From the sequence record OR896822.1: 64,000 nucleotides of DNA, one strand, 5' to 3'. This DNA comes from Salmonella phage vB_SenS-3. The notes beneath the pieces are model-generated. The model was not told the origin of the DNA. It worked only from the letters and a program-made list of their open reading frames with translations, and did not search any database. Positions 16,399-31,984 of the stretch are shown in pieces; the first letter of the stretch is position 1, and each line of letters starts with the position of its first letter. The position numbers and the translations under genes were made by a program.

Positions 16399-16406
16399 AA
16401 ATTCAA

Positions 16407-16435
16407 TTGCTTTAAGCCTTAAAATTCTGTATAAT
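16407..16435 (+). promoter_or_regulatory. early-type promoter (TTGCTT N17 TATAAT)
   Basis: Same architecture. Confidence 0.55.
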
Positions 16436-16467
16436 AACTGTATAAATTGATGAGAGGAAAGCGAACA

Positions 16468-16638
16468 ATGAAAACCTTAGTAATTATTGGTGTTAATACT
16501 CATGGTATTCGTACTACGAAAACAGTTAAAACTACTAACATTGCTGAAATTACTACAAATCCTAAGAAGTTTGATTTCGCCAAAGTCTCAGCAGTTATGA
16601 CAGAACAATCTTTTAACCAAGCACTGGGAATTAAATAA
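16468..16638 (+). CDS. hypothetical small protein
   Basis: ATG 16468 after GAGAGGAAAG RBS. Confidence 0.35.
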   Translation: MKTLVIIGVNTHGIRTTKTVKTTNIAEITTNPKKFDFAKVSAVMTEQSFNQALGIK

Positions 16639-17081
16639 TGGAAGAGAATATTCTAGATGTTTTGCGTAGGGCTTTGCAGGAATCCAAGTTTGATGGTTCT
16701 GATAAAGAAGTAGCTAAAAGCTACCAGACCATAATCGGAGATCTTCAGCGTGTTGATAAAGACTTCATTACTTCTGAACAGTTTATATCTTATCTAAAAG
16801 CTCAACTGAAAAGCATTAATCAGACGAAAGCTAAACTTCACAGTCAAGATCTTGATAATTATAGCTTGCAGTCTGCTCAGTATGAATATATACTGAACAA
16901 ATGGTTACAGCAGTATTTGCCTCCTCAGCTATCTGATTCTGAGATTCGCAAATACTTCGCAGAATTAGTTAAGCTGAATCCTGGGATTACAAAGGGTATG
17001 CTGATGAAAGCGATTAAGGAAGAGTTTCCTGGTCGTTACGACGGTGGCATTGCTGCTCAGGTTGCTGGCGAATTTAATTAA
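16638..17081 (+). CDS. GatB/YqeY-domain-like protein (putative)
   Basis: C-terminus NPGITKGMLMKAIKEEFPGRYDGGIAAQV resembles YqeY/GatB C-terminal domain. Confidence 0.45.
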   Translation: MEENILDVLRRALQESKFDGSDKEVAKSYQTIIGDLQRVDKDFITSEQFISYLKAQLKSINQTKAKLHSQDLDNYSLQSAQYEYILNKWLQQYLPPQLSDSEIRKYFAELVKLNPGITKGMLMKAIKEEFPGRYDGGIAAQVAGEFN

Positions 17082-17089
17082 AAATTAAT

Positions 17090-17118
17090 TTGCTAAACGC
17101 TTCAAAATTCTGTATAAT
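17090..17118 (+). promoter_or_regulatory. early-type promoter (TTGCTA N17 TATAAT)
   Basis: Upstream of HNH gene. Confidence 0.5.
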
Positions 17119-17124
17119 ATATTC

Positions 17125-17607
17125 ATGAAAAGGAAAGAATACCCTACTAAAGAAATACTTGAAAAATATTTTGTAGCTGATCCTGATAATGGGATACTAT
17201 ATAGGAAAACAAAGAAAGGTTTGAAAGAGTGTTGTGCCAATAATAAGAAATCACATCCAGATGTGGGATTTCAGGGCGACACCTATCAACTGCATGTCTT
17301 ATTATTTATTATGTACTATGGATATATGCCTGAAGAAGTAGATCATAAGGATACTAATCCTAGAAATAATAGGAAAAATAATCTAAGGGACGCCTCTAGA
17401 TCGCAAAATAATGCGAATAGAAACCAACAATGCAATAATACTTCTTGGTACAAAGGAGTAAGTTGGGAAGGCTCTTCCTTGAGATACCAAGTAAGACATG
17501 AAGGAAAAAATTACAGTAAAAGAGGGTTTAAAACTGCGGAAGAGGCTTTCGAGGCCTCTAAGATATTAAGAGAATCCTTACATAAAGAATTTACTAACTT
17601 TGGTTAG
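17125..17607 (+). CDS. HNH homing endonuclease with AP2-like domain
   Basis: VDHKDTNPRNNRKNNL HNH motif; YKGVSW...RYQVRHEGK AP2-like DNA-binding segment. Confidence 0.7.
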   Translation: MKRKEYPTKEILEKYFVADPDNGILYRKTKKGLKECCANNKKSHPDVGFQGDTYQLHVLLFIMYYGYMPEEVDHKDTNPRNNRKNNLRDASRSQNNANRNQQCNNTSWYKGVSWEGSSLRYQVRHEGKNYSKRGFKTAEEAFEASKILRESLHKEFTNFG

Positions 17608-18237
17608 TAATAGTGGGGTGCCGAAACCACTTATGTAACAACACTGCCGTCCTAGTATAATAGGTATTATTAGGGCTTCACCGCCTGAAGATGTGGGTTC
17701 GAGTCCCACGGTCGGAAAGAGTTGGATAACTGGTGCTTCTAATGGCGAAGCAATCGCAGGCAGTTGCGCACTGCCAAAACCACGCGGTAGTTGGTTCCAG
17801 GCTAACCAACCACTCTTGAAAAGTATATACTACGGTTTTGCTTGTTCAGGAAGCTTCGCATCGAAAATCGGAGGTGCGATTTTATCAGACCGCGTGGAGG
17901 ACGTCTCTCCGTTAAGTGACGAAAAGTGGGACGATTCAGGTAGAGCTGGATATGGAACACCTATACATATGCGGAGTGCGCACAAAGCATATTGCGGTGG
18001 TACTAAACGAAATTAGGAGTCATGACCTGCACAAGTTTAGTATGTCATAACCGATGTACATTCAGTACAAAAACCACTGAAGCTAAGATAGATAGTCACC
18101 TTGACTTAAACTGGAAGATATTGTCTGACGGAAGGGCTGCAGAGCTTAATCTGAGGGGGCTGACCCTACCTACCGTCGGGTATCTTTAAGAGTTCTTACG
18201 AGAACTCTTAAAGATACCTAAACATTAAGGAATACTG
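17608..18237 (+). ncRNA. candidate structured RNA (GC-rich, tRNA-like T-arm at 5' end, several hairpins)
   Basis: No RBS or promoter-proximal start; GTGGGTTCGAGTCCCAC T-arm at 17693-17709 without matching acceptor stem; local GC rise; many stems. Confidence 0.3.
18179..18218 (+). other. perfect 18-bp stem / 4-nt loop hairpin
   Basis: GGTATCTTTAAGAGTTCT / AGAACTCTTAAAGATACC inverted repeat just upstream of the ORF at 18238. Confidence 0.7.
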
Positions 18238-18747
18238 ATGAATCTAGGAACTACTTGTATATTTGATCACAGAGAAATGTGTTGCCCACATATTCTGTAT
18301 GTAGTTCACTTTGCAGAACGTCTTACTCTGGATGAAGCTCGTGAGAAAATGGGTGGAATTACTGGATATGATTTCCGTGAAGGTGAATACTTTAGCATTG
18401 CTCTTGATTACATTGACAATACCCGTCTCTATCATCTAGTGCAGCTAGGGGAAGAAACTGATGAAGTGAAAATGGCGAAAGATACTCTACGTCGTTATCG
18501 TCCTCAGATTCTAGAACGTACACTTCGTGGAGAACGTAGTGACCCATTGTTCTTGAAGTGCTATGACGCAGATGTTAATGAGTATCTAGGACAGCAACGG
18601 TTTTACACTGAAATCAAAGAGTTTGTTCGTGAAAAATACGACGCTCTACTAATTGATTCCAGAGCACGACGTGCAGCTAAAAATGCTGAGAAATCTGCTA
18701 AAGCAGCACTAGAAAGCCAAACCAAACTGAACGAAATCGTTAAGTGA
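18238..18747 (+). CDS. hypothetical protein
   Basis: 169-aa ORF, AAGG RBS. Confidence 0.5.
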   Translation: MNLGTTCIFDHREMCCPHILYVVHFAERLTLDEAREKMGGITGYDFREGEYFSIALDYIDNTRLYHLVQLGEETDEVKMAKDTLRRYRPQILERTLRGERSDPLFLKCYDADVNEYLGQQRFYTEIKEFVREKYDALLIDSRARRAAKNAEKSAKAALESQTKLNEIVK

Positions 18748-18755
18748 TCTAATTT

Positions 18756-18830
18756 CGGGGTGTAGTCTAAGGGATAGGCAGGAGTCTTCTAAATTCCTTT
18801 ATGCAGGTTCGAATCCTGTCACCTCGGCCA
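18756..18830 (+). tRNA. tRNA-Arg (anticodon TCT)
   Basis: Hand-folded cloverleaf: acceptor CGGGGTG/CACCTCG, T-loop TTCGAAT, anticodon loop CTTCTAA, CCA encoded. Confidence 0.65.
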
Positions 18831-18856
18831 ATCTTATTACCTGTTAGGAAAATAAA

Positions 18857-19057
18857 ATGAAAACACGATATATAGTAAAAGTAGTAGGTGAACATTCGCA
18901 AGTAAATACCACGGATGTTACAGCACTAGCATTTGAGGTAGTCTCCGGTATAGTCATATTTCATAATGGGGATATCAAAGCTCCTGAATTTGCTGTGGAT
19001 GCTGGCCTGTTTATTTCTGCAACTAAAGTAACTGTAGTAGCTAACTCTTCTAAATAA
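18857..19057 (+). CDS. hypothetical protein
   Basis: 66-aa ORF. Confidence 0.35.
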   Translation: MKTRYIVKVVGEHSQVNTTDVTALAFEVVSGIVIFHNGDIKAPEFAVDAGLFISATKVTVVANSSK

Positions 19058-19068
19058 TAAGGAAATAT

Positions 19069-20013
19069 ATGTTTACTAAAAACACTAAAGAACTGACTTC
19101 TGAGCAAAAAGTAATTCGTACTATTAAACGTTGGGGTGTTGGTGCTGCTATTAGTCTTGGTGCTCTTATTCTGGCTCTCAATTCCTATACAGTTGTTCAG
19201 GATGGTACTGTTAAGACCCAAACCTTCCTGGGTAAAGTTAGCCCTAATCCTGTATTGCCAGGCTTCCATATTGTTAACCCATTTGCTTCTTTTGATACTT
19301 TTAGTACGAAAGATATTTCCATGAAACTGGATAAACTTCAGGTTCCTAGCCAGGATAAGTTTAAGTCCACTGTTGACATTACCGTTATGTTGCAGTTTGA
19401 TGGTGCTAAAGCTCCTATGAACCGTGTTAACGCAGGTACTCAGGATCAAGCTCTGAACAAGTACGTTGAAGAGAAGATGCTGTCTACGATTCGTGAGTTT
19501 GGTAAGTCTGTACCAAAAGCACAAGATCTGTTCGACGCTAAGATTCAGGCTCAACTGCAAACCGCTATTCAGCAAGAAGTAGAAGAGTATGCGCGTCCTT
19601 ATGGTTACACCGTTAAGCAAGTATTCCTTCAGGATATTACTCTGCCACCGGTAATCATGGAACAGGTACAGAACACCAAAGTTCGTGAAGAACAAGTTAA
19701 CGCTGCAAAAGCTGAACTGGCTCGTGTTGAACAAGAAGCACAGCAGAAAGTTAAGCAAGCTGAGGCGGATCGTTCCGCTCGTGAAAACATGGCAGTAGCT
19801 AACGAACGTGACGCAGATGCTAAACTGTACGCAGCTAAGAAAGAAGCTGAAGCTAACGCCGCTCTGCAACGTACCATTACTCCTGAAATGATTCGTTGGA
19901 AGCAGCTGGAAGTTGAAATGCTTCGTGCTGAAAAATACCAAGGTGGTGTACCACAGACTGTTGTCGGTACTGGCTACGATGGTCAAATGATCATGGATAT
20001 GCGTAACAAGTAA
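19069..20013 (+). CDS. SPFH/band-7 (prohibitin/HflK-like) membrane protein
   Basis: N-terminal TM then VVQDGTVKTQTFLGK band-7 core and long coiled-coil Ala/Glu/Gln-rich C-terminus. Confidence 0.65.
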   Translation: MFTKNTKELTSEQKVIRTIKRWGVGAAISLGALILALNSYTVVQDGTVKTQTFLGKVSPNPVLPGFHIVNPFASFDTFSTKDISMKLDKLQVPSQDKFKSTVDITVMLQFDGAKAPMNRVNAGTQDQALNKYVEEKMLSTIREFGKSVPKAQDLFDAKIQAQLQTAIQQEVEEYARPYGYTVKQVFLQDITLPPVIMEQVQNTKVREEQVNAAKAELARVEQEAQQKVKQAEADRSARENMAVANERDADAKLYAAKKEAEANAALQRTITPEMIRWKQLEVEMLRAEKYQGGVPQTVVGTGYDGQMIMDMRNK

Positions 20014-25491: not shown

Positions 25492-25594
25492 TATTCTATG
25501 TAGGATTAAGTAAACCGGTAGCCAACCAGCTATCATTACTGATATCGAATTCAGTCACAGATACCATTTTTCACTAACAACTGAGGAAATAGAT

Positions 25595-26513: not shown

Positions 26514-26715
26514 AACAAATAGAGTAAAGGCTACAGTAGGTGCACCCTTACGGACTGCTACACCGGACTCTATTCATTAACAAACATTCTAGCGTGGTGG
26601 AGAGGGGACACCAGCTGTGCGAGGGTAGAAGCTTGTTCGATTCAAGTGAAAGAATGGTTCTCGTAAATCCGCAGCAGTGATAGTAGGTTCAAGTCCTACC
26701 TAGATTGACTTATTA

Positions 26716-26790: not shown

Positions 26791-27041
26791 AATTTAGGTT
26801 TCTGCTTCCTAGAGAACGGACTCCTAGATAAACAAGGCGATGAGTTTCCGGCCGGTTCTAGTCGCTGAAAATCCTCCCGACCAGGTAGGTGTAGGTAAAC
26901 GAAAGTTTACTTATTGAGTAGGTTCCGATAGATCGGCGGATCTATTCTGGCATTTAAGAGAAGTCTCGCAAACTTCTTTGTCAGCAGAGCGTTTGAAGCG
27001 TGAGGTGGCCTACACAATAAGTAAATTTATTAAAAACTCAT

Positions 27042-28009: not shown

Positions 28010-28271
28010 ATTTATATAAATTGATGAGGAGAAATCCTCATCAAAGTTCACTAAGGTATTAGCTCGACCTAGGGCTGGCTGCCAAAAAGCACAATTGCAA
28101 TTAGACCCCTAATGGCGGGGGATACTTTGCAATAAGTTCTAGATTAGTCCACTAGATTCAGTGGCAACTGAATAGTGTATCGGGTTTGTGAAGAGCGGTT
28201 ATCCTCTACTGGCTAATGTCTGAGGGTAATACGCACACCGAGCTAATAGCCTTAGTAAACTTAAAGATTTT

Positions 28272-29362: not shown

Positions 29363-29687
29363 AATCTTGAAGTATGCCGGAATCGGTAGACGGGGCTTCC
29401 TAAAGGGCGTAAGGGGAACATCCACTCCTCATAAGATACCCGAAAACGAGGCTGAGATAACTGGTCTATCTCGTGAAGGTTCGAGTCCTTCTGCTTCTTG
29501 ATATTCATCAATGGCTCAAAGTGTAACGGTGCTATTTGATGCTCTTAGTAAGACTTTCCCGACATGCGTTCGGGAGTAAGCTGCTAAGGCTAGAGTAGAA
29601 GAGTTTCGGAGAGCCGCCACAATTGAAGTCTTTAGAATGGGTATCGCCCTTTAGCCCCTCCGAAAGGGATAACTAGAGATTTCAATT

Positions 29688-31544: not shown

Positions 31545-31617
31545 AGTTAGTTGGCAGAGAGGTTATGCACCTCCTTCATACGGAGCGCCTACAGTGGTTC
31601 AAATCCACTACTAACTA
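31545..31617 (+). tRNA. tRNA with anticodon CAT (third CAT tRNA), CCA not encoded
   Basis: Acceptor AGTTAGT/ACTAACT, anticodon loop TTCATAC, T-arm AGTGG TTCAAAT CCACT. Confidence 0.45.
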
Positions 31618-31984
31618 CTAAACAGAGGATCAGATCATTGTACCAGATCCTGCTGAGAAGAGAGTCCACATTCTATAAATGGCCGGGCGTGACAGCAGGA
31701 AGTAGACTGCAACTCCATGCTATACAGGAGTATAAATGTAGAAGCTAGGGCTTTAGATAGCCATTGTCTTAGCGTGAGCAATCACGTAGTTGCAACAGAC
31801 CAGGGGATAGCAACGTTAAAATCAAAGCTCCTGTGCTTATTAAACTGAATGGGACTATCAATCCACAAGCCGGACTACGAGCGATTATCGGGTATTCACT
31901 TAATAAGCAAGCCTGCCTTCCAGTTTTTATCTTGCTTCTGGGTTAACAAAAAGCTGAGCCAAATTCTAGCATCAGGGAGATCTA

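What the first reader, a model, noticed from the sequence alone, without database searches (positions are those of the whole stretch)
17608..18237. GC-rich 630-bp structured non-coding region starting with an orphan tRNA T-arm and ending in a perfect 18-bp hairpin
Between an HNH gene and the next ORF there is no credible coding signal, GC content rises sharply, and there are multiple local stems (for example GGCAGTTGCGCACTGCC, GTTGGTT..AACCAAC). A canonical T-arm GTGGGTTCGAGTCCCAC at 17693 has no matching acceptor stem, and a perfect 18-bp stem with 4-nt loop sits at 18179-18218. This looks like a stable or processed RNA (RNase III substrate) or a decayed tRNA or intron remnant rather than protein-coding DNA.
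Basis: seen in the sequence. Interest (0 to 1): 0.7.

Follow-up and report, generated by a model that had tools for sequence, protein, structure and literature searches.

The report
Phage T5 "RNAX" structured RNA gene
The flagged stretch is a real, roughly 615-base non-coding structured RNA gene, the counterpart of the "RNAX, stable RNA with unknown functions" annotated in phage T5; it contains a tRNA look-alike, is kept in almost all T5-like phages, and still has no known function.

Summary
The window is a T5-like Salmonella phage, 100% identical to phage bux. One observation is wrong. The T-arm is not orphan. It sits in a complete cloverleaf at 17646-17717, which ARAGORN calls "tRNA-SeC" and Rfam scores at 33 bits against a cut-off of 29.

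The interval is syntenic and homologous to T5 misc_RNA rnaX (719 nt, "stable RNA with unknown functions"), which runs from an early promoter to the 5' end of tRNA-Arg. I recovered 43 distinct homologues, 573-896 nt long. Neither small ORF in the interval is conserved. Four tested structural blocks show compensatory base changes, and G·U pairs point to the + strand.

The cloverleaf is a tRNA mimic, not a decoder. Its anticodon loop is aberrant and not conserved, and it lacks the encoded CCA that 26 of the 27 other tRNA calls carry. It is replaced by a plain hairpin in two phages.

In this phage an HNH gene and a 169-aa ORF have been inserted on either side of the RNA. Nothing else in Rfam matches, and BF23 has lost the RNA, so it is dispensable. 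The RNA is already annotated in T5, but its function remains open.

The parts
17090..17118 (+). Sigma-70 promoter TTGCTA-17-TATAAT, homologous to the T5 early promoter P16-17 that T5's annotation places at the start of rnaX
   Evidence: Promoter scan, 10 of 12 matches. 89.6% identical to the T5 promoter segment. T5 annotation.
17125..17607 (+). HNH homing-endonuclease ORF (160 aa), inserted between the promoter and the RNA. It is absent at this position in T5, APCEc03, SmurfNell and others.
   Evidence: Pfam HNH_3, E = 2.3e-12. PHROG 99. Homology to relatives breaks at 17129 and resumes at about 17604-17609.
17609..18224 (+). RNAX orthologue as a whole (about 616 nt): a non-coding structured RNA
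   Evidence: Synteny and homology to T5 misc_RNA rnaX. 43 distinct homologues of 573-896 nt. ORFs not conserved.
17612..17631 (+). 5' leader hairpin AGUGG..CCACU inside the conserved leader AGUGGGGUG..GAAA..ACUUAUGUA
   Evidence: 94.7% of cells paired across 19 sequences, but no compensatory change (helix 1). Weakly supported.
17646..17717 (+). tRNA-like cloverleaf. Acceptor 17646-52 / 17710-16, D arm 17655-70, short anticodon-like arm 17672-87 with a 6-nt loop, T arm 17693-17709. No encoded CCA.
   Evidence: ARAGORN. Rfam tRNA 33 bits. Covariation: 84.4% paired against 27-49% in slid controls, and 8 pairs changed on both sides. No CCA here, whereas 26 of the 27 other tRNA calls have it.
17735..17751 (+). 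Hairpin B1 (GCUUC / GAAGC)
   Evidence: 100% paired, 2 pairs with compensatory change.
17759..17775 (+).
   Evidence: 89.4% paired, 1 compensatory pair.
17776..17788 (+). Conserved motif AAAACCACGCGGU. In this phage it is 9/9 complementary to 17889-17897, but that long-range pairing is not kept in other RNAX types.
   Evidence: Alignments. Inverted repeat I4. The partner is missing in the T5 and Klebsiella types.
17790..17810 (+).
   Evidence: 88-91% paired, 2 compensatory pairs.
17856..17879 (+). Hairpin with a covarying 7-bp stem (UCGCAUC / GGUGCGA) and a conserved loop GAAAAUCGGA
   Evidence: Seven distinct variants show UCGCA/UGCGA, UCACA/UGUGA and ACAUA/UAUGU stems. The MFE folds predict it. 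Not tested with a pair count.
17924..17931 (+). Conserved motif AAGUGGGA
   Evidence: Present in all RNAX types. Its only + strand occurrence in the window (one more on the - strand).
18001..18042 (+). Hairpin presenting the motif GGAGUCAUGACC (18016-18027). Its 8-nt loop AGUCAUGA (18018-18025) contains the palindrome UCAUGA. The motif mimics a Shine-Dalgarno sequence plus ATG and seeds the spurious 55-aa ORF.
   Evidence: AGTCATGA occurs exactly once in each of the 43 homologues. Stem covariation is moderate: 72% paired against 21-55% slid, score 0.270 against 0.174, 2 of 500 shuffles.
18094..18120 (+). Hairpin D1 (AGUCA CCU UGACU) followed by the conserved UAAACUGGAAGAUA
   Evidence: 99.2% paired, invariant. 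Used as the metagenome search pattern.
18127..18177 (+). Three-way junction. Closing helix D2 (18127-35 / 18169-77) encloses hairpins D3 (18136-45) and D4 (18154-67), which are separated by the conserved CUUAAU.
   Evidence: Covariance model R1 and its alignment A5: helices 88-97% paired, 7 pairs with compensatory change.
18179..18218 (+). Terminal hairpin, 18 bp and perfect in this phage, with a UACG loop. In most relatives it ends 5-6 nt before tRNA-Arg.
   Evidence: 96.1% paired across 24 distinct sequences, with G·U at two positions in 18 and 21 of the 24. Adjacency to tRNA-Arg.
18238..18747 (+). 169-aa ORF of unknown family, inserted between the RNAX 3' hairpin and tRNA-Arg
   Evidence: No Pfam or PHROG hit. 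Absent in 23 of 26 T5-like IMG/VR genomes, where the hairpin abuts tRNA-Arg.
18756..18830 (+). tRNA-Arg(UCU), the ancestral 3' neighbour whose 5' end marks the end of T5 rnaX
   Evidence: ARAGORN. Rfam 49.3 bits. T5 annotation.

Best explanation
The interval 17609-18224 is this phage's orthologue of bacteriophage T5 rnaX. It is a long (about 616 nt), non-coding, highly structured RNA on the + strand.

Shown or annotated:
- Homology and synteny with T5 rnaX.
- The ORFs in the interval are not conserved.
- The strand is +.
- Four structural blocks covary.
- The modules are, in order: a conserved 5' leader; a tRNA-like cloverleaf that keeps the acceptor/T-arm stack and the D/T elbow but has no usable anticodon loop and no CCA; a string of hairpins with covarying stems and invariant loops or linkers; a 3' domain made of a three-way junction; and a long terminal hairpin.

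Inferred:
- It is transcribed from the early promoter at 17090-17118 as one precursor with tRNA-Arg. In this phage that precursor also carries two inserted genes, the HNH ORF and the 169-aa ORF.
- It is released by the host tRNA-processing machinery. RNase P cutting at the tRNA-Arg 5' end would define the ancestral 3' end, just after the hairpin, and the hairpin would then block 3' exonucleases. RNase P may also cut at G17646 of the tRNA mimic, which would separate the RNA from the upstream HNH message.
- The mature RNA acts as a stable RNA in its own right, not as a message or a decoding tRNA. It presents tRNA-like and other conserved surfaces to a host or phage partner.

Its cellular role is unknown and accessory. 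My leading guess is a decoy or scaffold for a tRNA-binding or tRNA-cleaving factor.
For: Identity:
- T5 RefSeq annotates misc_RNA rnaX, 719 nt, "stable RNA with unknown functions", between promoter P16-17 and tRNA-Arg.
- The window matches the T5 promoter (89.6%), T5 positions 115-363 (79.6%), the 3' domain (72%) and tRNA-Arg (96%), all in the same order.
- Covariance model R1, built from the 3' domain, finds T5 at 66.8 bits and exactly one full + strand copy in the window, at 165.6 bits.

Non-coding:
- Every homologue except the near-identical L003 has frameshifting indels and in-frame stops in both ORFs.
- There are no Pfam hits.

Structure under selection:
- Leader plus cloverleaf: 84.4% paired against 27-49% slid, 8 compensatory pairs, 0 of 500 shuffles.
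- Hairpins B1-B3: 92.4% against 16-50%, 5 compensatory pairs.
- 3' domain: 94.5% against 34-51%, 9 compensatory pairs.
- Palindromic-loop hairpin: moderate support.

Strand: G·U pairs dominate several helix positions. They would be C·A mismatches on the other strand.

Transcription unit: a consensus promoter at 17090-17118 and no terminator before tRNA-Arg. The hairpin ends 5-6 nt before tRNA-Arg in 23 of 26 related genomes.

Prevalence: all 26 IMG/VR T5-like loci found through the neighbouring YqeY gene carry the leader and the invariant AGUCAUGA loop. 524 GenBank phage records match.
Against: - No transcript data were available. That the RNA accumulates rests only on the depositors' words in the T5 record.
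- The 5' and 3' ends, RNase P cleavage at the tRNA mimic and any partner are all inferred.
- The cloverleaf is a poor RNase P substrate on paper (G1·A72 and U5·U68 mismatches, no CCA).
- The cloverleaf is replaced by an unrelated hairpin in L048 and L050, so it cannot be essential to the rest of the RNA.
- The central 200 nt differ strongly between RNAX types, and the long-range helix predicted here is not conserved. The RNA may therefore be several independent modules rather than one fold.
- The alignment behind the 3'-domain count (A5) was fitted to the model, which favours the structure.
- BF23 lacks most of the RNA yet is viable.
Confidence: 0.8

Rival explanations
1. The interval is only a long, structured 5' leader or spacer of the tRNA-Arg precursor. 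It would tune processing or stability of tRNA-Arg, and here of the inserted ORFs, and would have no function of its own once removed.
For: It is co-oriented with tRNA-Arg and in most phages directly abuts it. There is no terminator in between. BF23 has lost both the RNA and tRNA-Arg together.
Against: 573-896 nt with several invariant loop motifs and covarying helices, conserved across three phage lineages, is far more than any of the other tRNAs in the cluster carries. The structure is kept intact in phages where a 510-nt ORF now separates it from tRNA-Arg. The T5 depositors list it as a stable RNA, not a leader.
Confidence: 0.1
2. The cloverleaf is a working tRNA, either an opal suppressor or a tRNA-Sec as annotated in several GenBank records, and the rest of the interval is unrelated spacer.
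For: ARAGORN calls tRNA-SeC(tca). Rfam tRNA scores 33 bits, above the cut-off of 29. Several records annotate "tRNA-Sec". All four arms covary.
Against: - The anticodon is not conserved: UCA here, UAA ("Pseudo") in the T5 type, and a 20-nt loop with an extra hairpin in the Klebsiella types.
- The best pairing gives a 6-nt loop, and position 37 would be C.
- The variable loop is 5 nt, not the long arm of tRNA-Sec.
- It has two acceptor mismatches and no CCA, whereas 26 of the 27 other tRNA calls encode CCA.
- Homologues score 26.6-38.3 bits, against 43-69 for real tRNAs.
- The T5 annotators, whose notes report an amber-suppressor conversion outcome for nearly every tRNA, left it inside rnaX.
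Confidence: 0.04
3. The interval codes for two small proteins of 107 and 55 aa, as annotated in phages vB_SenS-3 and IrmaTschudi.
For: ORFs 17693-18016 and 18022-18189 exist and are annotated as hypothetical proteins in some records. GGAG precedes the ATG at 18022. PHROG 19105 (a 45-aa profile of unknown function) matches residues 2-41 of the 107-aa ORF.
Against: 41 of the 42 other distinct homologues carry frameshifting indels and usually several in-frame stops in each ORF. The GTG start lies inside the T-arm and reads GTA or GCA in most relatives. From the conserved ATG, relatives would encode 2-14 aa (sequence). There are no Pfam hits. The PHROG match is best explained by gene callers translating a conserved RNA.
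Confidence: 0.03
4. The interval is evolutionary debris: a decayed tRNA gene plus the remnant of a group I/II intron or of a homing-endonuclease insertion.
For: An HNH gene lies next to it. The tRNA-like element is imperfect. The middle of the region is mosaic between phages.
Against: Compensatory substitutions keep all four cloverleaf arms and the downstream helices. The element is present in all 26 T5-like genomes sampled through the neighbouring gene. No intron model matches at E <= 10. The HNH gene is a recent insertion outside the RNA.
Confidence: 0.03

Closest known systems
Bacteriophage T5 rnaX (locus T5s08, NC_005859 40848-41566), "RNAX, stable RNA with unknown functions"
   Same: Same genomic slot: after the YqeY-like gene and its early promoter, before tRNA-Arg. 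Same order of modules. 72-80% nucleotide identity in the conserved blocks. The covariance model built from the 3' domain recognises both.
   Different: Here the RNA is about 616 nt rather than 719 nt. The central third is a different variant, and T5 has a duplicated D1 motif. This phage has an HNH gene inserted 5' of the RNA and a 169-aa ORF inserted 3' of it. T5's acceptor stem is fully paired, whereas this one has two mismatches.
Other T5 tRNA-cluster stable RNAs (RNAI, RNAIII, RNAIV, RNA1, RNA2, RNA2H, RNA3) and the T4 tRNA-cluster "RNA species I and II"
   Same: They are phage-encoded non-coding RNAs embedded among tRNA genes, some described as tRNA-like, of unknown function and co-transcribed with tRNAs (T5 annotation; T4 map legend in PMC2330249). 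That the T4 species are matured by tRNA-processing enzymes is my own knowledge; I did not check it here.
   Different: Those RNAs are 73-172 nt. RNAX is four to ten times longer and multi-domain. I looked for no sequence relationship between them.
GOLLD and ROOL large ornate RNAs
   Same: These are 500-900-nt, elaborately structured RNAs of phages and prophages. They often lie next to tRNA islands, GOLLD sometimes has a tRNA inside it, and their function is unknown (bioRxiv 10.1101/2024.12.08.627333). RNAX shares the size class, the phage origin, the tRNA-island context, an embedded tRNA-like unit and an invariant palindromic loop that could make a loop-loop contact.
   Different: No match to the Rfam GOLLD or ROOL models even at E <= 10. 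Different host clade (Enterobacteria). Multimer formation is untested. The middle of RNAX is much less conserved.
Canonical tRNA (Rfam RF00005)
   Same: Cloverleaf with a T loop UUCGAGU, G18 G19 in the D loop and a 5-nt variable loop. The score is above the Rfam cut-off.
   Different: The anticodon loop is aberrant and not conserved. There is no encoded CCA, and the acceptor stem has mismatches. The element sits inside a longer conserved RNA.
tRNA-like processing modules of long RNAs (MALAT1/mascRNA) and tRNA-domain ncRNAs (tmRNA, bacterial YrlA Y RNAs)
   Same: A tRNA-shaped element inside a non-tRNA transcript can recruit RNase P or tRNA-binding proteins. This is a resemblance in how it may work, and it rests on my own knowledge.
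   Different: ARAGORN finds no tmRNA. No Rfam tmRNA or Y RNA match. In RNAX the tRNA-like unit is near the 5' end, not at the 3' end as in MALAT1.

Membership tests
T5 RNAX (rnaX) family | Located between the YqeY-like ("tRNA amidotransferase") gene with its early promoter and tRNA-Arg(UCU), on the same strand | tested here: met
   T5 annotation. Window order: YqeY 16638-17081, promoter 17090-17118, RNA, tRNA-Arg 18756, with two insertions.
T5 RNAX (rnaX) family | Sequence homology to T5 rnaX along its length | tested here: met
   blastn: 79.6% over 250 nt (5' domain), 100% over the 23-nt D1 motif, 71.8% over 142 nt (3' domain). Model R1 scores T5 at 66.8 bits and the window at 165.6 bits. The central part is divergent.
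T5 RNAX (rnaX) family | Non-coding | tested here: met
   ORFs not conserved. No Pfam family.
T5 RNAX (rnaX) family | Accumulates as a stable RNA in infected cells | not testable with these tools
   Only the depositors' note in NC_005859. No paper on RNAX was found in the library.
tRNA (functional decoder) | Cloverleaf with four paired arms and a T/D elbow | tested here: met
   Rfam 33.0 bits against a gathering score of 29. 84.4% of cells paired, with compensatory changes in the acceptor, D, anticodon-like and T stems.
tRNA (functional decoder) | 7-nt anticodon loop (U33, purine 37) with an anticodon conserved among orthologues | tested here: not met
   The Rfam alignment gives a 6-nt loop. 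The loop reads UUCACC here, GUAACU in the T5 type and a 20-nt loop with a hairpin in the Klebsiella types. The anticodon-like stem is only 61% paired.
tRNA (functional decoder) | 3' CCA encoded, as in this phage's other tRNA genes | tested here: not met
   26 of the 27 other ARAGORN tRNAs end in CCA. The tRNA-like ends ...GGUCGGAAAGAG.
tRNA-Sec | Long variable arm and an extended acceptor/T architecture | tested here: not met
   The variable loop is 5 nt (AAGAU), and the stems are 7 bp and 5 bp. The "SeC" label comes only from the UCA triplet.
tmRNA | tRNA-like domain formed by the 5' and 3' ends, plus a tag reading frame | tested here: not met
   ARAGORN reports no tmRNA. No Rfam match. The candidate frames ending at the conserved CUUAA are not conserved between RNAX types (read by eye).
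Group I / group II intron | Match to intron covariance models | tested here: not met
   cmscan of 16500-19500 at E <= 10, and of six homologous loci at E <= 1, returned only tRNA hits and chance-level matches.
GOLLD / ROOL | Match to the Rfam family models | tested here: not met
   No hit at E <= 10 or E <= 1 in six homologues.
GOLLD / ROOL | Large phage RNA next to a tRNA island that self-assembles into multimers | not testable with these tools
   The context feature is met (28 ARAGORN calls in the window). Assembly is unknown. The only hint is the invariant palindromic loop AGUCAUGA.
Intrinsic terminator | GC-rich hairpin followed by a U-tract | tested here: not met
   No + strand terminator-like site in 16400-19200. 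The hairpin is followed by UAAACAUUAAGG.
RNase III processing site | About two turns of dsRNA that RNase III cleaves | not testable with these tools
   An 18-19 bp stem is present. Cleavage needs an experiment.

The most novel reading that the evidence does not exclude
RNAX would be the enterobacterial counterpart of the large "ornate" phage RNAs (GOLLD, ROOL) that sit in tRNA islands. It would be a self-associating or protein-scaffolding RNA whose tRNA-shaped module and invariant loops capture a host tRNA-binding or tRNA-cleaving factor, such as an anticodon nuclease of an anti-phage system, or tRNAs themselves. The candidate loops are the palindromic AGUCAUGA, GAAAAUCGGA and the D1 hairpin with UAAACUGGAA. 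T5 and E. coli K-12 would then be the first genetically tractable model for this class.
Probability: 0.15. Interest if true: 0.85.

Novelty: already known. Interest (0 to 1): 0.5.

Why it matters
T5 is a classic model phage. Its tRNA region has recently been tied to escape from tRNA-targeting bacterial defences (the BF23 paper PMC10644984 cites the retron Eco7 / tRNA-Tyr work and the work on anticodon-loop mutations). Yet the largest RNA gene of that region has no assigned function and no Rfam family, and current phage annotations miss or mislabel it. In phage bux only the cloverleaf is annotated, as "tRNA-OTHER". Other records call it "tRNA-Sec" or annotate two hypothetical proteins.

Recognising the element has three practical uses:
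- It removes spurious ORFs and spurious suppressor or selenocysteine tRNA calls from hundreds of T5-like genomes.
- It supplies a structural framework for experiments: modules, covarying helices and invariant loops.
- It gives an E. coli-tractable case for the open question of what large structured phage RNAs next to tRNA islands do.

Tried and rejected
Literature:
- Six full-text searches on T5 stable RNAs, RNAX, tRNA-like RNAs and transcriptomes found nothing about RNAX.
- The T4 genome review (PMC150520) is not held.

Widening the sample:
- tblastn with the downstream SPFH protein reached T4-like phages, not more distant T5 relatives.
- The search for related loci with the YqeY protein returned the same T5-like genomes.
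- The metagenome pattern scan gave only 11 loci, and those that yielded sequence fell into the known RNAX types.
- blastn against 5,426 complete E. coli genomes found nothing, so the RNA is not host-derived and not in prophages.

Ideas I rejected:
- tmRNA-like tag frame ending at the conserved CUUAA. The frames are not conserved, and ARAGORN finds no tmRNA.
- RNase P RNA-like motifs. Rfam finds nothing.
- Descent of the cloverleaf from one particular phage tRNA. The best identity to any of the 27 is 70%.
- The 9-bp long-range helix 17780-88 / 17889-97, and the complementarity of 17745-58 to both strands of the 17856-79 hairpin. Neither is kept in other RNAX types.
- An alternative pairing for the leader hairpin. 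It remains unresolved.

Technical points:
- mafft-qinsi was unavailable.
- MAFFT put the T5-type 3' domain out of register, so I used a covariance model instead.
- The repeat finder on the whole window did not list the 18-bp hairpin, although the local run lists it. I therefore make no claim from that scan about how rare such hairpins are in the window.
Full report
**Source and setting.** The window is a T5-like Salmonella phage. The 801 bases around the finding are 100% identical to phage bux (Epseptimavirus), and 242 phage records match by megablast. The finding lies at the start of the phage's tRNA region: ARAGORN makes 28 calls between 17645 and 31618. Upstream are a YqeY-like gene (16638-17081; PHROG "tRNA amidotransferase") and an HNH endonuclease ORF (17125-17607; Pfam HNH_3). 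Downstream are a 169-aa ORF with no family (18238-18747) and tRNA-Arg(UCU) at 18756-18830.

**Checking the observation.**
- GC is 0.495-0.505 at 17600-17900, against 0.33-0.39 on either side.
- The 18-bp perfect hairpin with a 4-nt loop is at 18179-18196 / 18201-18218. Its MFE is -27.6 kcal/mol, z = -8.8, and none of 200 shuffles folds as well.
- The whole 617 nt folds better than shuffles on both strands (z = -3.6 and -4.8).
- One statement is wrong: the T-arm is not orphan. ARAGORN calls a tRNA at 17645-17718, and the Rfam tRNA model scores 33.0 bits (gathering 29) over 17646-17717. That alignment shows two acceptor mismatches (G1·A72, U5·U68) and a 6-nt anticodon loop.

**What it is.** The T5 reference genome (NC_005859) annotates a 719-nt misc_RNA, rnaX, "RNAX, stable RNA with unknown functions". 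It runs from early promoter P16-17, just after the YqeY-like gene T5.081, to the base before tRNA-Arg.
- The window aligns to that T5 stretch in the same order: promoter 89.6% (17082-17129), 5' domain 79.6% over 250 nt (17604-17850), the D1 motif 23/23, 3' domain 71.8% (18092-18223), and tRNA-Arg 96.4%.
- So the finding is the bux orthologue of T5 RNAX.
- Two genes have been inserted in this phage. The HNH ORF sits between the promoter and the RNA: homology to relatives stops at 17129 and resumes near 17604-17609. The 169-aa ORF sits between the terminal hairpin and tRNA-Arg.
- In 23 of 26 T5-like IMG/VR genomes the hairpin is followed directly by tRNA-Arg, 5-6 nt after the stem.

**Breadth and variation.** From GenBank phages, IMG/VR and metagenomes I collected 63 loci, which gave 43 distinct full-length sequences of 573-896 nt.
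- All 26 loci found through the neighbouring YqeY gene carry the leader and the invariant AGUCAUGA loop.
- The RNA is mosaic. The conserved islands are the leader AGUGGGGUG..ACUUAUGUA, the cloverleaf, GAUAACU, AAACCACG, a hairpin loop GAAAAUCGGA, AAGUGGGA, GGAGUCAUGACC, AACCAC, AGUCACCYUGACU-UAAACUGGAA, CUUAA and the terminal hairpin. Hairpins between them differ between the Epseptimavirus, Tequintavirus and Klebsiella-phage types.
- These motifs occur only here, or nearly only here, in the 64-kb window.
- Model R1, built from the 3' domain, finds a single full + strand copy in the window.

**Coding versus RNA.** The two ORFs in the interval are 17693-18016 (107 aa, with a GTG start inside the T-arm) and 18022-18189 (55 aa). 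Some GenBank records annotate them as hypothetical proteins.
- In every homologue except the near-identical L003 they are broken by frameshifting indels, and almost always by in-frame stops as well.
- The apparent ribosome-binding site plus ATG is the invariant RNA motif GGAGUCAUGACC. From that ATG, relatives would encode only 2-14 residues.
- Pfam finds nothing.
- PHROG 19105, a 45-aa profile of unknown function, matches the first 41 residues of the 107-aa ORF. I read this as a family made of gene-caller translations of the conserved RNA.

**Structure under selection.** Four pair-count tests, each with shuffle and slide controls:

| Block | Paired | Slid controls | Pairs changed on both sides | Covariation score (shuffle mean; shuffles as high) |
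|---|---|---|---|---|
| Leader plus cloverleaf, 19 sequences | 84.4% | 27-49% | 8 | 0.201 (0.118; 0/500) |
| Hairpins B1-B3, 11 sequences | 92.4% | 16-50% | 5 | 0.211 (0.114; 0/500) |
| 3' domain, model-based alignment, 24 distinct sequences | 94.5% | 34-51% | 9 | 0.228 (0.122; 0/500) |
| Hairpin presenting AGUCAUGA, 17 sequences | 72.1% | 21-55% | 4 | 0.270 (0.174; 2/500) |

- The acceptor stem in particular shows U·U, A-U and U-A at pair 5-68, and C-G, U·G and U-A at pair 6-67.
- The 3'-domain alignment was fitted to the model, which favours the structure.
- The three sequence types of the 3' domain share one architecture: the D1 hairpin, then a closing helix around two hairpins separated by CUUAAU, then the long terminal hairpin.
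- G·U pairs are the majority state at several positions, including two in the terminal hairpin (18 and 21 of 24 sequences). On the opposite strand they would be C·A mismatches, so the + strand RNA is the selected molecule.
- The perfect Watson-Crick version of the hairpin in this phage is the minority state.

**The cloverleaf is a mimic, not a tRNA.**
- Its anticodon-like arm is short (61% paired).
- The loop is UUCACC here, GUAACU in the T5 type (tRNAscan "Pseudo-TAA" in APCEc03) and a 20-nt loop with its own hairpin in the Klebsiella types.
- There is no encoded CCA, whereas 26 of the 27 other tRNA calls in the window end in CCA.
- Homologues score 26.6-38.3 bits, against 43-69 for genuine tRNAs.
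- The variable loop is 5 nt, so the "tRNA-Sec" label in several records comes only from the UCA triplet.
- In two phages (L048, L050) the cloverleaf is replaced by a hairpin of about 45 nt closed by the same basal pairs.
- What is conserved is the acceptor/T-arm stack, the T loop and the D-loop GG. By general knowledge, these are the parts that RNase P and other tRNA-binding proteins recognise.

**How it most likely works.**

*Shown or annotated:*
- A consensus sigma-70 promoter (TTGCTA-17-TATAAT, 17090-17118) is homologous to T5 P16-17.
- There is no terminator before tRNA-Arg.
- The terminal hairpin abuts tRNA-Arg in most relatives.

*Inferred:*
- The RNA is made as part of a tRNA-Arg precursor.
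- RNase P cleavage at the tRNA-Arg 5' end creates the ancestral 3' end, and the 18-19 bp hairpin protects it from 3' exonucleases.
- RNase P may also cut at G17646, which is preceded by the invariant ACACU. That cut would free the RNA from the HNH message in this phage.
- The mature RNA acts through its conserved loops and its tRNA-like surface.

*Dispensability:* in BF23 the homology ends inside the T-arm, at a junction with hegA. The 3' domain is absent from the fetched locus. The BF23 paper reports a roughly 4-kb deletion flanked by nuclease genes and the loss of tRNA-Arg (PMC10644984). The function is therefore accessory, in a region that paper links to anti-defence genes.

My leading but unproven guess is a decoy or scaffold for a tRNA-binding or tRNA-cleaving factor. 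An alternative prompted by the invariant palindromic loop (UCAUGA within AGUCAUGA) is loop-loop self-association, as in ROOL and GOLLD.

**Comparison with known families.**
- Nothing in Rfam 15 except the tRNA model matches, at E <= 10 in the window or E <= 1 in six homologues. That excludes introns, tmRNA, Y RNA, GOLLD and ROOL.
- ARAGORN finds no tmRNA.
- The RNA has no match in 5,426 complete E. coli genomes.
- The closest relative is T5 rnaX itself.
- The closest analogues are the small stable RNAs of the T5 and T4 tRNA clusters and GOLLD and ROOL, the large ornate phage RNAs that lie near tRNA islands and still have no known function.

**Verdict.** It is not new as an entity, because T5's annotation already lists it. 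It has no known function, is absent from Rfam, and is routinely missed or mis-annotated in T5-like genomes. Interest is moderate, because it is a large conserved RNA of unknown role in a tractable model phage.

Noticed in passing
window 25494-25566, 26585-26709, 26918-27016, 28057-28191, 29366-29512, 29513-29619: Homologues (77-92% identity) of six more T5 "stable RNA with unknown functions" or tRNA-like misc_RNA genes: RNA3, RNA2, RNAIV, RNA2H, RNA1 and RNAI. ARAGORN calls none of them as tRNAs. T5 RNAIII has no match in the window.
   Followed up: partly
window 17113-17127: The HNH ORF's ATG (17125) lies about 7 nt after the -10 hexamer of the promoter. Its message would therefore be leaderless or nearly so, and it shares the RNAX promoter.
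   Followed up: no
window 18238-18747: A 169-aa ORF with no Pfam or PHROG family is inserted exactly between the RNAX terminal hairpin and tRNA-Arg. It is present in a minority of relatives (L003, L007, L011, L012, L050, L073) and absent in 23 of 26 IMG/VR T5-like genomes.
   Followed up: partly
L004 (BF23) 1501-1636: In BF23 the RNAX homologue stops inside the T-arm, at a junction with the hegA (F-TflIV) homing-endonuclease gene. The rest of RNAX is missing from the fetched locus, and the published BF23 genome paper reports that tRNA-Arg is also absent.
   Followed up: partly
L048 4386-5001 and L050 4204-4821: Two T5-like phages have replaced the tRNA-like cloverleaf of RNAX with an unrelated hairpin of about 45 nt (GCCAGA...UCUGGA) and kept the rest of the RNA.
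   Followed up: partly
L047 (T5) and L075: T5 and one metagenomic relative carry the D1 motif (AGUCACCUUGACU-UAAACUGGAA) twice, about 87 nt apart, inside RNAX.
   Followed up: no
window 17693-17815: PHROG 19105 (45 aa, unknown function) matches a translation of the conserved RNA. It is probably a protein family built from spurious ORF calls over RNAX.
   Followed up: partly
window 31545-31618: The last ARAGORN call, tRNA-Met(cat), is the only other call in the window without an encoded 3' CCA.
   Followed up: no
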